From positions 1 through 8,951 of IMG/VR virus record IMGVR_UViG_3300029107_000009: 8,951 bases of DNA, one strand, 5' to 3'. Below are positions 1,859 to 5,770 of this stretch, one piece after another. The stretch's first letter is position 1. Each line of letters starts with the position of its first letter. This stretch comes from a virus. Lineage: Duplodnaviria; Heunggongvirae; Uroviricota; Caudoviricetes. Both the position numbers and the translations under genes were made by a program. Below the pieces are notes generated by a model. It was not told the DNA's origin. It saw only the letters and a list, made by a program, of their open reading frames with translations, and did not search any database.

Positions 1859-1948
1859 GTGCTGGTTCTGAAATGTGCGCTGGCTATTGCGGCAGTAATG
1901 GCAATTTATTGTCTTGTTATCGTTCTTATGAATCACCTTTCTGATTAA
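1859..1948 (+). CDS. Small hydrophobic peptide (29 aa), candidate membrane peptide or type I toxin-like
   Basis: GTG 1859 with strong SD GGGAGG (1848-1853) at 5 nt. Product MLVLKCALAIAAVMAIYCLVIVLMNHLSD. Candidate promoter TTGAAG (1793-1798) / CATATT (1816-1821) with a 17-nt spacer. Below the size cutoff of the ORF track. Confidence 0.4.
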   Translation: MLVLKCALAIAAVMAIYCLVIVLMNHLSD

Positions 1949-1955
1949 TTTTATA

Positions 1956-1984
1956 TTGGCGAGGTGACGTGAGTTAAGTAGAAT
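1956..1984 (+). promoter_or_regulatory. Candidate sigma70 promoter of the hok-type mRNA
   Basis: -35 TTGGCG (1956-1961), 17-nt spacer, -10 TAGAAT (1979-1984). The predicted start near 1991 places the complementary box at the 5' end of the transcript. Confidence 0.4.
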
Positions 1985-1988
1985 TGCT

Positions 1989-2002
1989 GCGGGTGCTTGA
2001 GG
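1989..2002 (+). promoter_or_regulatory. Upstream complementary box of the hok mRNA (fold-back inhibition element, 5' partner)
   Basis: GCGGGTGCTTGAGG (1989-2002) can pair antiparallel with CCTCAACGCACCCGC (2365-2379) just before the 3' terminator: 14 bp with a one-nucleotide bulge. Confidence 0.5.
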
Positions 2003-2037
2003 CTATCTGCCTCGGGCATGAACACCAACGGCAGATA

Positions 2038-2111
2038 GAGAAAAGCCCCAGTTAACATTACGCGTCCTGCAAGACGCTTAACATTAATCTGAGGCCCAAT
2101 CTATGCTTCAC
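2038..2111 (-). ncRNA. Candidate Sok-like antisense RNA (boundaries approximate)
   Basis: Minus-strand -35 TTGCCT (forward 2141-2146) and -10 TAACCT (forward 2118-2123) with a 17-nt spacer. The transcript would be antisense to the mok start codon (2103) and its SD. On the minus strand an outer 7-bp stem (forward 2045-2051 with 2089-2095, one G-U pair that is a C-A mismatch on the plus strand) encloses an inner hairpin (forward 2062-2077) and is followed by UUUUCUC. Confidence 0.3.
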
Positions 2112-2315
2112 AAACGTAGGTTAGCCTCTTACGTGCCGAAAGGCAAGGAGAAGCAGGCTATGAAGCAGCAAAAGGCGATGTTAATCGCCCTGATCGTCAT
2201 CTGTTTAACCGTCATAGTGACGGCACTGGTAACGAGGAAAGACCTCTGCGAGGTACGAATCCGAACCGGCCAGACGGAGGTCGCTGTCTTCACAGCTTAC
2301 GAACCTGAGGAGTAA
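2103..2315 (+). CDS. Mok-like ORF: in-frame 19-codon N-terminal extension of hok
   Basis: 70-aa ORF MLHKRRLASYVPKGKEKQA + Hok sequence, in frame with hokD as in chromosomal mok/hok annotations; GAGG lies 10 nt upstream of ATG 2103. Confidence 0.45.
   Translation: MLHKRRLASYVPKGKEKQAMKQQKAMLIALIVICLTVIVTALVTRKDLCEVRIRTGQTEVAVFTAYEPEE
2160..2315 (+). CDS. hokD: Hok-family type I toxin (HokD/RelF-like, 51 aa)
   Basis: Product MKQQKAMLIALIVICLTVIVTALVTRKDLCEVRIRTGQTEVAVFTAYEPEE matches the Hok/Gef family and my recollection of E. coli HokD (RelF). SD AAGGAG at 9 nt; N-terminal TM helix and conserved Cys. Confidence 0.9.
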   Translation: MKQQKAMLIALIVICLTVIVTALVTRKDLCEVRIRTGQTEVAVFTAYEPEE

Positions 2316-2364
2316 GAGACCAGGCGGGGGAGGAATCCCTCGCCACCTCTGATGAGTCAGGCAT

Positions 2365-2379
2365 CCTCAACGCACCCGC
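2365..2379 (+). promoter_or_regulatory. Downstream complementary box of the hok mRNA (3' partner)
   Basis: Complementary to 1989-2002 (see above); located 50 nt after the hok stop, immediately before the terminator. Confidence 0.5.
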
Positions 2380-2384
2380 ACTTA

Positions 2385-2410
2385 ACCCGCTTCGGCGGGT
2401 TTTTGTTTTT
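2385..2410 (+). terminator. Rho-independent terminator of the hok transcript
   Basis: ACCCGC-TTCG-GCGGGT stem-loop followed by TTTTTGTTTTT. Confidence 0.8.
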
Positions 2411-2535
2411 ATTTTCAACGCGTTTGAAGTTCCGGACGGCGCCGGAATAGAATCAAAAACACTTAAGTAGCGCGCAGGGAGAAGAGGGATGGACCCCGAA
2501 CAGGGGAGTGCTATTTATCTGGAAGGATTCTGTTG

Positions 2536-3142: not shown

Positions 3143-4192
3143 GTGAGGGTATTACTTCGACCTGTTCTGGTGCCGGAACTCGGGCTGGTGGTCCTTAAGC
3201 CAGGTCGTGAATCCATGCAGGTATTTCACAATCCCCGGGTGCTGGTGGCGCCTGAACCAAAAAGCATGCGCGCTCTGCCGTCAGGACCTGTTCCTGCTGT
3301 TAGCCAGCTGCTGGCAGAGGATAAAACATTACTGCCATTTTTCAGCGACGAACGAGTGATTCGTGCTGCTGGCGGCGCTGGTGCACTGTCTGACTGGCTG
3401 TTGCGCCATGTTAAATCCTGCCAGTGGCCACACGGCGACTATCACCACAGTGAAACCGTCATTCACCGTTATGGCGCTGGCGCGATGGTGTTGTGCTGGC
3501 ACTGCGACAACCAGCTGCGTGACCAGACATCCGAATCACTCGAGCAACTTGCTCATCAAAATCTGTCAGCATGGATGATTGACGTCATACGCCATGCAAT
3601 GAATGGCACGCAGGAGAGGGAGTTATCGCTGGCTGAATTATCCTGGTGGGCGGTCTGCAATCAAGTGGCGGACGCGCTTCCGGAGGCAGTATTACGTCGT
3701 TCTCTGGGGTTACGTGCGGAAAAAATCCGCTCAATGTACCGTGAAAGCGACATCGTACCGGGAGAGCAGACCGCCACCAGCATACTGAAGCAGCGCACAA
3801 AAAATCTTGCGCAGTTGCTTCACACCCACCAGCCACAGAACCCAGCACAGGAAAAGCAGGTGGTCAGCATTGCCGTTGATCCGGAGTCTCCGGAATCTTT
3901 CATGAGGCGACCTAAACGTCGCCGTTGGGTAAATGAGAAATATACGCGCTGGGTGAAGACACAGCCGTGTGCGTGTTGTGGTCAACCAGCCGACGATCCC
4001 CATCACCTGATTGGTCACGGTCAGGGAGGGATGGGAACAAAGGCCCACGATATTTTCACGCTACCGTTGTGCCGGGAACATCACAACGAACTTCATGCGG
4101 ATCCGCTGGCGTTCGAAGAAAAGCATGGTTCTCAGGTTGATTTAATTTTTCGTTTTCTTGATCACGCCTTTGCAACCGGCGTGCTTGGGTAA
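3143..4192 (+). CDS. ydfU: DUF968-family prophage protein (YdfU-like, 349 aa) with a C-terminal Cys/His-rich HNH-like motif
   Basis: GTG 3143 with GGAGG at 4 nt. The 349-aa length and the position upstream of Q match my recollection of Qin YdfU. The C-terminus contains CACCGQPADDPHHLIGHGQGG...LCREHHNELH. Confidence 0.75.
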   Translation: MRVLLRPVLVPELGLVVLKPGRESMQVFHNPRVLVAPEPKSMRALPSGPVPAVSQLLAEDKTLLPFFSDERVIRAAGGAGALSDWLLRHVKSCQWPHGDYHHSETVIHRYGAGAMVLCWHCDNQLRDQTSESLEQLAHQNLSAWMIDVIRHAMNGTQERELSLAELSWWAVCNQVADALPEAVLRRSLGLRAEKIRSMYRESDIVPGEQTATSILKQRTKNLAQLLHTHQPQNPAQEKQVVSIAVDPESPESFMRRPKRRRWVNEKYTRWVKTQPCACCGQPADDPHHLIGHGQGGMGTKAHDIFTLPLCREHHNELHADPLAFEEKHGSQVDLIFRFLDHAFATGVLG

Positions 4193-5460: not shown

Positions 5461-5536
5461 GGCCCTTTAGCTCAGTGGTGAGAGCGAGCGACTCATAATC
5501 GCCAGGTCGCTGGTTCAAATCCAGCAAGGGCCACCA
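5461..5536 (+). tRNA. tRNA with CAU anticodon, ileX/ileZ-like (Ile2 type after lysidine modification, or elongator Met)
   Basis: 76 nt; acceptor GGCCCTT/AAGGGCC; D-arm GCTCAGTGGTGAGAGC; anticodon loop CTCATAA; T-loop TTCAAAT; encoded CCA. Resembles E. coli ileX from memory. Confidence 0.8.
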
Positions 5537-5537
5537 A

Positions 5538-5614
5538 CCGCCACTAGCTCATCAGGAAAGAGCGTCAACCCTTTAAGTTGAGTGTGCGAGGTTCGAGTCC
5601 CCGGTGGCGGTCCA
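5538..5614 (+). tRNA. tRNA-like gene with atypical anticodon loop CCTTTAA (anticodon UUU if canonically numbered, but C at position 33)
   Basis: 77 nt; acceptor CCGCCAC/GTGGCGG; anticodon stem TCAAC/GTTGA; T-loop TTCGAGT with one A-C mismatch in the T-stem; encoded CCA. Confidence 0.55.
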
Positions 5615-5616
5615 GT

Positions 5617-5692
<76 letters not shown>

Positions 5693-5695
5693 TAT

Positions 5696-5770
<75 letters not shown>

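What the first reader, a model, noticed from the sequence alone, without database searches (positions are those of the whole stretch)
1956..2410. Apparently intact hok/sok-type type I toxin-antitoxin locus built around a HokD-like toxin
The locus shows the full architecture expected of a functional hok/sok system. It has a candidate promoter (TTGGCG-17-TAGAAT), a 5' box (1989-2002) that can pair over 14 bp with a 3' box (2365-2379) just before the terminator, an in-frame mok-like extension, and a stem-loop-plus-U-tract that folds better on the minus strand, as expected for a Sok antisense RNA. As I recall it, the hokD locus of E. coli K-12 sits downstream of relBE and is regarded as degenerate. 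Here there is no relBE and the regulatory elements look complete, so this may be an active post-segregational killing or phage-defence module.
Basis: partly seen in the sequence, partly recalled or inferred. Interest (0 to 1): 0.6.

Follow-up and report, generated by a model that had tools for sequence, protein, structure and literature searches.

The report
Intact prophage hok/sok (hokD/hokW-type) toxin-antitoxin

Summary
- a hok promoter;
- a 5' tac box that pairs with a 3' fbi box;
- a ucb box that masks the mok Shine-Dalgarno sequence (SD);
- an in-frame mok ORF;
- an antisense Sok gene with its own promoter and terminator;
- the hok ORF;
- an intrinsic terminator.

Rfam RF01794 scores 113 bits (gathering score 59) and Pfam HOK_GEF scores 82 bits (cut-off 22). 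The toxin is 100% identical to K-12 HokD.

The leader and Sok gene are about 95% identical to mokW/hokW/sokW of phage 933W/Sp5. That locus was annotated in 1999 and shown to be a working type I TA in 2021 (PMC8621323).

The 5'/3' pairing recurs at +340 to +382 nt in about 45 related loci from seven or more genera, with compensatory changes. The leader alone is present in 4284 of 5426 complete E. coli genomes.

Verdict: real, apparently intact and already known. Whether it is active is inferred from homology and was not shown here.

Side observation: a conserved 29-codon membrane-peptide ORF (1859-1948), which current annotation omits, travels with the cassette.

The parts
1956..1984 (+). hok/mok promoter: -35 TTGGCG (1956-1961), 17-nt spacer, -10 TAGAAT (1979-1984)
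   Evidence: The -10 box is conserved at a fixed distance from the mRNA 5' end in about 45 loci. Function is inferred.
1991..2405 (+). Full-length hok (mok-hok) mRNA, about 415 nt
   Evidence: The 5' end is taken from Rfam model position 1 and the conserved GGGYGC. The 3' end is taken from the terminator. The ends were not mapped experimentally.
1991..2002 (+). tac (translational activator) box GGGUGCUUGAGG. It pairs with fbi in the full-length RNA and with ucb in the 3'-truncated RNA.
   Evidence: Folds; covariation.
1993..2019 (+). Predicted 5' metastable hairpin of the nascent transcript (11 bp, -18.8 kcal/mol), which sequesters tac
   Evidence: folds of 1991-2020 to 1991-2040. The role is inferred from the R1 model (PMC9841398).
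2042..2049 (+). ucb / anti-SD box AAGCCCC. It pairs with the mok SD in the full-length fold and with tac in the truncated fold. On the minus strand it forms the Sok terminator tail.
   Evidence: the Rfam consensus helix; conserved in all loci.
2041..2111 (-). Sok antisense RNA (71 nt): a 14-nt single-stranded 5' tail covering the mok start codon, a long hairpin, and GGGGCUUUU
   Evidence: Maps onto the annotated sokW of 933W. Fold -29.2 kcal/mol. Same geometry as K-12 sokC, with the 5' end 8 nt past the first base of the mok start.
2118..2146 (-). Sok promoter: -35 TTGCCT (2146-2141), 17-nt spacer, -10 TAACCT (2123-2118); start at G2111
   Evidence: Identical to 933W. The -10 is the hexamer mutated in the sokW 'pro-less' construct (primer YO-421). 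Conserved across genera.
2091..2094 (+). mok Shine-Dalgarno sequence GAGG
   Evidence: conserved. Paired to ucb in the full-length fold.
2103..2315 (+). mok ORF (70 codons), in frame with hok and sharing its stop codon
   Evidence: PHROG 251 'MokW-like host killing' 7.7e-33. The exact 70-aa sequence is on 735 public contigs.
2105..2110 (+). dcb-like box GCUUCA, which pairs with the mok SD region in the truncated-mRNA fold
   Evidence: fold of 1991-2362. The assignment is by analogy to R1 (PMC9841398) and is tentative.
2146..2151 (+). hok Shine-Dalgarno sequence AAGGAG
   Evidence: Identical in 933W and K-12.
2160..2315 (+). hok ORF (51 aa), Hok/Gef membrane toxin
   Evidence: Pfam PF01848 3e-23. 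100% identical to K-12 HokD and 92% to HokW.
2298..2301 (+). UACG (TadA A-to-I editing motif), in frame at the Tyr47 codon
   Evidence: The homologous K-12 hokD site is reported as edited Tyr->Cys (PMC5630033). Editing was not shown for this locus.
2365..2377 (+). fbi (fold-back inhibition) box CCUCAACGCACCC
2384..2410 (+). Intrinsic terminator of the hok mRNA (7-bp GC-rich stem plus T run)
   Evidence: Identical in K-12 hokD.

Best explanation
[quoted passage not shown] That region lies between the replication and methyltransferase genes on one side and the DUF968, RusA, antiterminator Q, tRNA and lysis genes on the other.

Mechanism, following the plasmid R1 paradigm:
1. A constitutive promoter makes a stable mRNA of about 415 nt. 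While the transcript is nascent, a 5' hairpin hides tac.
2. In the finished RNA, tac (1991-2002) pairs with fbi (2365-2377) and ucb masks the mok SD. The full-length RNA is therefore neither translated nor bound by Sok.
3. Slow 3' trimming removes fbi. tac then switches to ucb, and the mok SD and start codon and the Sok target become exposed.
4. The short-lived 71-nt Sok RNA (2111->2041, from its own promoter inside mok) pairs over the mok start. This blocks mok translation, and with it the coupled hok translation, and marks the duplex for RNase III.
5. When Sok supply stops, because the element is lost or the prophage is induced, Hok (51 aa) is made and damages the inner membrane.

Shown here: all the sequence elements, their predicted pairings, their conservation and covariation, and near-identity to a tested locus. 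Inferred: transcription, processing, toxicity control and biological role. The most likely role, by analogy to hokW-sokW of Sp5, is to speed lysis and phage release after prophage induction. Prophage stabilisation is a secondary possibility.
For: - Rfam RF01794 hits 1991-2165 on the + strand at 113.1 bits against a gathering score of 59. The same model hits 933W (113.5 bits) and an R1-type plasmid locus (87.2 bits) but not K-12 hokD.
- Pfam HOK_GEF scores 81.6 bits. Hok is 100% identical to K-12 HokD and 92% to HokW.
- DNA alignment: the leader and Sok gene match 933W mokW/hokW/sokW, and the ORF, 3' UTR and terminator match K-12 hokD.
- The Sok promoter hexamers are identical to those of sokW. 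Mutating that -10 released HokW toxicity.
- Folds reproduce the R1 scheme: tac/fbi plus ucb/SD-mok in the full-length RNA, tac/ucb in the truncated RNA, and a 5' metastable hairpin (model from PMC9841398).
- tac/fbi pairing is found at +340 to +382 nt in about 45 loci from Escherichia, Shigella, Kluyvera, Photorhabdus, Pantoea, Citrobacter, Erwinia and other genera. Compensatory pairs occur at 5' positions 4 (U-A 13, C-G 7), 7, 10 and 12 (G-C 13, A-U 8).
- The pairing is missing in K-12 hokC and hokE, which both have an IS186 copy close downstream.
- Prophage context.
- Ubiquity: the leader is in 4284 of 5426 E. coli genomes, and the exact Mok sequence is on 735 contigs.
Against: - No expression data exist for this copy.
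- The Sok promoter is a poor consensus match (7/12), and the simple promoter scan does not find it.
[quoted passage not shown] An intact sequence therefore does not guarantee activity.
- The NCBIfam Hok subfamily model scores 48.5 bits, below its 73-bit cut-off.
- Five bases of Sok differ from SokW, four of them in the 5' recognition tail. They are matched automatically in cis, but kinetics could differ.
Confidence: 0.87

Rival explanations
1. The cassette is structurally intact but physiologically silent, like other chromosomal hok loci. It is transcribed, but Hok is never released at harmful levels. It persists by hitch-hiking with the prophage or as an anti-addiction copy that supplies Sok.
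For: The chromosomal hokA (E. coli C), hokB (K-12) and hokC (ECOR24) loci gave no post-segregational killing and no rifampicin activation (summary). E. coli genomes carry a median of 2 and up to 10 copies of the leader, so redundancy or cross-protection is conceivable. Deleting hokW-sokW had no effect on growth without induction.
Against: In Sp5, HokW protein is made after mitomycin C and the deletion halves phage release. Regulatory boxes are strongly conserved and compensatory changes are maintained across genera. Decay is seen elsewhere when constraint is lost: the K-12 relBE-hokD truncation and the pINV stump.
Confidence: 0.25
2. Its main role is prophage maintenance by post-segregational killing: cells that excise and lose the prophage are killed by the stable hok mRNA.
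For: This is the classical role of R1 hok/sok. 933W and several records annotate the gene as 'prophage maintenance'. The mRNA architecture that gives delayed activation is complete.
Against: This has never been shown for hokW/hokD-type loci. The tested relative acts during induction. The chromosomal homologues that were tested failed post-segregational killing assays.
Confidence: 0.2
3. It is an abortive-infection or superinfection-exclusion module. Shut-off of host transcription by an invading phage depletes Sok, and Hok kills the cell before the invader matures.
For: [quoted passage not shown] Many prophages carry defence genes. The unstable antitoxin RNA fits this logic.
Against: No PADLOC model matches Hok/Mok or its neighbours. 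The large survey found no enrichment of hok near defence systems. There are no data for hokD/W-type loci.
Confidence: 0.15
4. The pattern is a chance resemblance or a decayed pseudogene-like remnant.
For: Each promoter hexamer match is individually weak.
Against: Rfam E-value 8.6e-26 and Pfam E-value 3e-23. The ORF and all boxes are intact. The locus is about 95-98% identical to thousands of loci. The real remnants (K-12 hokD, pINV L066) look different.
Confidence: 0.01

Closest known systems
mokW/hokW/sokW of Stx2 phage 933W and Sakai prophage Sp5 (AF125520; PMC8621323)
   Same: Same lambdoid-prophage setting. The cassette is 94.7% identical over window 1971-2387. The Sok promoter hexamers, hairpin, ucb, SDs, in-frame mok and tac/fbi boxes are identical. 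Hok is 92% identical.
   Different: Homology ends at about 1970 on the left and 2379 on the right, so the -35 region and the terminator differ. Five of 71 Sok bases differ, four of them in the 5' tail. Four Hok C-terminal residues differ (TAYEPEE vs VDYESEK). 933W lacks the upstream 29-codon ORF.
hokD (relF) of E. coli K-12, Qin prophage
   Same: The Hok protein is identical. The hok SD, ORF, 3' UTR, fbi and terminator are nearly identical. The downstream neighbours are the same (rem-like ORF, DUF968/ydfU, antiterminator Q).
   Different: K-12 has relBE fused directly upstream and lacks the promoter, tac, ucb, the Sok target, mok and the Sok gene. It has no Rfam hit. The window holds the complete form. 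The truncated relBE form also occurs in other E. coli and in a Kluyvera genome.
hok/sok (parB) of plasmid R1, represented here by an R1-type IncFII locus with an identical Hok
   Same: Same order of elements, same Rfam family (87 bits), the same Sok promoter layout (TTGCGC-17-TATCCT against TTGCCT-17-TAACCT) and a tac GGCGCUUGAGG box.
   Different: Hok is only 39% identical. The Sok target hairpin is shorter: the hokD/W type has an insertion of about 18-20 nt, giving a 71-nt Sok. It sits on a plasmid rather than a prophage, and post-segregational killing has been demonstrated only for the plasmid locus.
hokC/mokC/sokC (gef) of E. coli K-12
   Same: Hok is 82% identical. mok is in frame and shares the hok stop codon. 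The Sok 5' end lies 8 nt past the first base of the mok start, as in the window. It is in the same Rfam family at 118 bits.
   Different: It is a core-chromosome locus with an IS186 copy close downstream, and it shows no canonical tac/fbi duplex. Its Sok is shorter (59 nt).

Membership tests
[quoted passage not shown] | A Hok/Gef toxin ORF of about 50 aa with an N-terminal transmembrane helix and a conserved Cys | tested here: met
   Pfam PF01848 scores 81.6 bits against a cut-off of 22. 100% identical to K-12 HokD. PHROG 251. The NCBIfam Hok subfamily HMM scores only 48.5 bits against its 73-bit cut-off.
[quoted passage not shown] | A conserved hok mRNA leader fold (tac/ucb stem, Sok target hairpin, downstream hairpins) | tested here: met
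   Rfam RF01794 scores 113.1 bits against a gathering score of 59 and covers model positions 1-157. This 'sok' model matches the hok-sense strand: in K-12 it hits the hokC strand, while the annotated sokC is on the opposite strand.
[quoted passage not shown] | An overlapping mok reading frame with its own SD, whose start region is the antisense target | tested here: met
   GAGG at 2091-2094 and ATG at 2103; 70 codons in frame with hok, as for mokW and mokC. The Sok region 2041-2111 covers the ATG.
[quoted passage not shown] | A cis-encoded antisense Sok gene: a promoter inside mok, a single-stranded 5' tail, and a terminator hairpin with a U tract | tested here: met
   TTGCCT-17-TAACCT is identical to sokW. 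The fold is -29.2 kcal/mol with a 14-nt free 5' tail and a GGGGCUUUU end. The boxes are conserved across genera. This is sequence-level evidence only.
[quoted passage not shown] | Long-range 5'-3' (tac/fbi) pairing that locks the full-length mRNA | tested here: met
   12 bp with one bulge; pair probabilities 0.97-1.0. Present at +340 to +382 nt in about 45 loci with compensatory changes.
[quoted passage not shown] | 3' processing to a truncated, translatable, Sok-binding mRNA | not testable with these tools
   Only the predicted refolding of 1991-2362 into tac/ucb is available.
[quoted passage not shown] | Hok is toxic and Sok neutralises it | not testable with these tools
   By homology only. 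This was shown for hokW-sokW (PMC8621323). The HokD coding sequence is reported as toxic on overexpression.
[quoted passage not shown] | A post-segregational killing phenotype | not testable with these tools
   Not shown for any hokD/W-type locus in the papers read.
K-12-type degenerate relBE-hokD locus | relE directly upstream of the hok SD; promoter, tac, mok and Sok absent | tested here: not met
   The window has a full leader. K-12 diverges upstream of AGGAGAAGCAGGCT and has no Rfam hit in Qin. relBE is found in L012, L033 and L049 but not in intact loci.
Catalogued anti-phage defence systems (PADLOC-DB v2) | A match to a defence-system protein model | tested here: not met
   No PADLOC hit for Mok/Hok, the small upstream ORF, or the neighbours at 1177-1614 and 3143-4189. 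The absence of a model does not exclude a defence role.

The most novel reading that the evidence does not exclude
In this lineage the hok/sok cassette may really be a three-gene module. A conserved 29-codon single-helix membrane peptide ORF (1859-1948, GTG start, SD GGGAGG) ends 8 nt before the hok -35 box. Current annotation omits it. It co-travels with hok/sok in about a third of E. coli genomes. It could be a second small membrane toxin, or a modulator of Hok or of hok transcription.

Separately, the hot spot of variation in the Sok 5' tail and mok start (2090-2119) may reflect selection for mutually orthogonal Sok specificities among the 2-10 cassettes per genome.
Probability: 0.2. Interest if true: 0.4.

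Novelty: already known. Interest (0 to 1): 0.1.

Why it matters
It matters little as a discovery. The cassette is a textbook type I toxin-antitoxin system, it is common in E. coli prophages, and a near-identical copy has already been dissected. Three points are still useful.
- It shows what the complete form of the K-12 'hokD/relF' fragment looks like.
- RefSeq annotation (PGAP) marks only the 51-aa ORF and omits mok, Sok and the regulatory RNA.
- The true role of such cassettes in prophages (lysis timing, maintenance or defence) is still open and could be tested with this intact copy.

Tried and rejected
- Plasmid R1 accession KY749247 is not in the plasmid collection. I used an IncFII plasmid whose Hok is identical to the R1 Hok sequence as I recalled it.
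The single-protein scan worked.
- A hard-constraint fold meant to forbid tac/fbi gave an implausible -100 kcal/mol. The constraint was probably mis-specified, so I discarded the number and used pair probabilities.
- The simple promoter scan does not detect the Sok promoter. I accepted that promoter on homology to sokW and on the published -10 mutation.
- The NCBIfam models fall below their cut-offs and PADLOC gives nothing.
- L011 has a leader 87% identical by BLAST but no Rfam hit at the gathering score. I did not pursue this.
- Minus-strand ORFs 2129-2293 and 2290-2418 overlap hok and its 3' UTR. I treated them as spurious.
- A minus-strand promoter-like site at 1977->1948 overlaps the conserved hok promoter spacer. 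I judged it probably a chance match.
- The whole window matches complete E. coli genomes only as a mosaic of about 93% identity, so the source strain was not identified. Exact protein matches point to E. coli.

Full report
**What is in the sequence**

- TTGGCG (1956-1961), a 17-nt spacer and TAGAAT (1979-1984) precede a conserved GGGUGCUUGAGG that starts at 1991.
- The 5' box (1989-2002) and the 3' box (2365-2379) are complementary over 14 bp with one bulged C. Twelve of these pairs lie inside the probable transcript.
- An ATG at 2103, preceded by GAGG at 2091-2094, opens a 70-codon frame that runs in frame into the 51-codon hok ORF (2160-2315).
- A 7-bp GC-rich stem (2384-2401) followed by a T run ends the unit.
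- The minus strand of 2041-2111 folds into a long hairpin with a free 14-nt 5' tail and a GGGGCUUUU end. It folds at -29.2 kcal/mol, against -17.8 for the plus strand of the same stretch.

**Is it more than chance?**

Yes.
- Rfam's hok/sok model RF01794 matches 1991-2165 at 113.1 bits (gathering score 59, E = 8.6e-26).
- Pfam HOK_GEF matches the ORF at 81.6 bits (cut-off 22).
- The promoter hexamers alone are weak evidence: the region has 4 promoter-like sites against 0.9 expected. However, a TAnnAT box sits 6-7 nt upstream of the conserved GGGYGC in about 45 loci whose upstream sequences are otherwise unrelated.
- The Rfam 'sok' model matches the hok-sense strand. In K-12 it hits the hokC strand, while the curated sokC RNA is on the opposite strand. 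The hit therefore certifies the hok mRNA leader, not the antisense RNA as such.

**What it is**

The window is the early-right to late region of a lambdoid prophage. It holds a DNA methyltransferase, the hok cassette, a rem-like ORF, DUF968, RusA, antiterminator Q, four tRNAs, two holin-family genes, an M15 endolysin and an HNH endonuclease. Gene order matches a prophage of E. coli SMS-3-5.

- The cassette is 94.7% identical to the mokW/hokW/sokW locus annotated in phage 933W and in VT2-Sakai (Sp5).
- It is 96-98% identical to loci that PGAP calls hokD in thousands of E. coli chromosomes.
- Alignment A1 shows a mosaic. The leader and Sok region match 933W. The hok ORF, 3' UTR and terminator match K-12 hokD.
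- K-12 loses all similarity upstream of the hok SD, where relE lies, and it has no Rfam leader hit.
- The encoded Hok is 100% identical to K-12 HokD and 92% to HokW.

So the window holds the complete form of the locus that survives in K-12 only as the relBE-hokD fragment. The truncated relBE form also exists in other E. coli and in a Kluyvera genome.

**The antisense gene**

The annotated sokW (71 nt) maps to window 2041-2111 on the minus strand.
- Upstream on that strand lie TTGCCT (2146-2141), a 17-nt spacer and TAACCT (2123-2118). Both hexamers are identical in 933W.
- In the study of hokW-sokW, the 'promoter-less' construct was made with a primer that changes this AGGTTA to CCGGCT. That change released HokW toxicity, which sokW supplied in trans partly reversed.
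- The Sok 5' end lies 8 nt past the first base of the mok start codon, the same geometry as the curated K-12 sokC/mokC pair.
- These boxes (AAAGCCCC, GAGG, ATG, TAGCCTCTTAC, GAAAGGCAAGGAG) are conserved from Escherichia to Photorhabdus and Erwinia. The hairpin between them covaries.

**mRNA switching**

The folds reproduce the R1 model as summarised in PMC9841398.
- Nascent RNA (1991 to about 2040) forms a 5' hairpin that hides tac (-18.8 kcal/mol).
- In the full-length RNA (1991-2404, -172 kcal/mol), 1991-2002 pairs with 2365-2377 at probabilities of 0.97-1.00. The ucb box GCC.CAG pairs with CUG.AGGC and so buries the mok SD.
- In RNA truncated at about 2362, the 5' end switches to AAGCCCC (2042-2049), the helix used by the Rfam consensus. 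The mok SD then sits in a small weak hairpin with GCUUCA (2105-2110).

These are predictions. Processing itself was not tested.

It is not absent.
- I collected 53 loci from one genome per species and placed the mRNA 5' end in each with Rfam.
- I then searched 300-470 nt downstream for a partner of the first 14 nt. Almost every locus has a 12-13-bp duplex at +340 to +382 nt.
- Among 24 distinct 5'/3' combinations, position 4 is U-A in 13 and C-G in 7. Position 12 is G-C in 13 and A-U in 8. Positions 7 and 10 also show double changes.
- The canonical duplex is missing in K-12 hokC and hokE, which both have an IS186 copy close downstream, and in one Shigella locus.

**How common and how well known**

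- The leader alone (1985-2159) is present at 80% coverage or more in 4284 of 5426 complete E. coli genomes. The median is 2 places per genome and the maximum is 10.
- The exact 70-aa Mok sequence is on 735 public contigs, under names such as 'phage maintenance protein' and 'Hok family toxin'.
- A 2025-26 survey reports thousands of hok homologues in prophages and phages, an enrichment in prophages, and HokD toxicity.
[quoted passage not shown] After mitomycin C its Sok disappears and HokW is then made. HokW reaches the inner membrane about 1 h before endolysin appears. Deleting the locus halves phage release.

The finding is therefore already known. What remains unproven for this copy is expression and activity. 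Caution is warranted because the apparently intact chromosomal hokA, hokB and hokC loci failed post-segregational killing and rifampicin tests.

**Function**

I rank the roles as follows.
1. A lysis and release helper on induction. This is the only role with direct evidence, and it comes from a 95%-identical locus.
2. A silent or anti-addiction copy.
3. Prophage maintenance.
4. Abortive infection.

No PADLOC model matches Hok/Mok or its neighbours, and the survey found no association with defence islands.

**Differences from hokW that might matter**

- Five of the 71 Sok positions differ, four of them within the 16-nt 5' end (2096, 2102, 2108, 2109).
- Among ten distinct hokD/W-type loci, the transcribed region is nearly invariant except for patches at 2016-2029, 2090-2119 and 2327-2351. 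The 2090-2119 patch is the Sok tail, the mok start and the stretch just upstream of the Sok start site.
- This pattern is compatible with diversification of antisense specificity among co-resident cassettes, but I did not test that.

**Side observations**

A 29-codon ORF (1859-1948) lies directly upstream of the hok promoter and encodes MLVLKCALAIAAVMAIYCLVIVLMNHLSD.
- Its length is conserved at 90 nt, with a conserved SD, a GTG or ATG start and a conserved stop.
- Codon changes are 36 synonymous to 28 non-synonymous in this frame, against 9:47 and 16:48 in the other two frames.
- It is present in 1884 of 5426 E. coli genomes without RefSeq annotation. Older records sometimes call longer versions 'hypothetical' or 'membrane protein'.
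- It has no PHROG, NCBIfam or PADLOC match.
- It accompanies hok/sok in the phages HannyBb, Tritos, mEp460 and Evi and in chromosomal loci, but not in 933W.

The TadA editing motif UACG sits in frame at Tyr47 (2298-2301). This is the position reported as edited to Cys in K-12 hokD mRNA (PMC5630033).

Noticed in passing
window 1859-1948 (+); SD at 1848-1853: A conserved 29-codon ORF that current annotation omits, encoding a single-helix hydrophobic peptide (MLVLKCALAIAAVMAIYCLVIVLMNHLSD). It ends 8 nt before the hok -35 box. It has a coding-type substitution pattern (36 synonymous: 28 non-synonymous, against 9:47 and 16:48 in the other frames) and no indels. It is in 1884/5426 E. coli genomes and co-travels with hok/sok, but 933W lacks it. 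It has no PHROG, NCBIfam or PADLOC match.
   Followed up: partly
window 2090-2119: A hot spot of variation among otherwise near-identical hokD/W-type loci. It coincides with the single-stranded 5' tail of Sok, the mok start and the stretch just upstream of the Sok start site. Four of the five Sok differences from SokW lie here. It may set antisense specificity among the 2-10 cassettes per genome.
   Followed up: partly
window 2298-2301: A TadA A-to-I editing motif, UACG, in frame at the Tyr47 codon of hok. The homologous site in K-12 hokD mRNA is reported as edited Tyr->Cys (PMC5630033).
   Followed up: partly
window 5461-5770: A cluster of four tRNA genes between antiterminator Q and the lysis genes: CAT (ARAGORN calls it Met; PGAP calls the SMS-3-5 counterpart Ile), Lys-TTT, Thr-TGT and Gly-TCC.
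   Followed up: no
window 2424-2453: A promoter-like site, TTGAAG-18-TAGAAT, just after the hok terminator and upstream of the rem-like ORF 2533-2796.
   Followed up: no
window 1991-2165 and K-12 loci L005, L006: Rfam RF01794, named 'sok antitoxin', matches the hok-sense strand (the mRNA leader through the hok AUG), not the strand of the annotated Sok RNAs. RefSeq (PGAP) annotation of E. coli genomes shows nothing under the leader.
   Followed up: yes
L056 250-397 and L058 362-389 (Erwinia sp., Kalamiella sp.): CRISPR-DR4 repeats lie about 100-250 nt upstream of hok leaders in these genomes.
   Followed up: no
L042 (556 and 1185) and L034 (1-140 and 533): Tandem hok leaders about 600 nt apart in a Photorhabdus genome and in an Enterobacteriaceae genome. 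Photorhabdus species carry many hok copies.
   Followed up: no
L023 (275 nt, 'Acinetobacter idrijaensis') and L028 (431 nt, 'Xanthomonas pisi'): Fragments 96-100% identical to E. coli HokD on tiny contigs of unrelated genera. These are most likely E. coli contamination of the assemblies.
   Followed up: no
L066 700-910 (E. coli pINV plasmid, next to icsP): A copy of the small ORF, followed by a decayed stump of about 60 nt of the hok leader and no hok gene. This is a remnant of the module on an invasion plasmid.
   Followed up: partly
L011 536-700 (E. coli ECMA0423): A HokD-encoding locus with a leader 87% identical by BLAST that gave no Rfam hit at the gathering score. It may be a degraded or divergent leader.
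   Followed up: no
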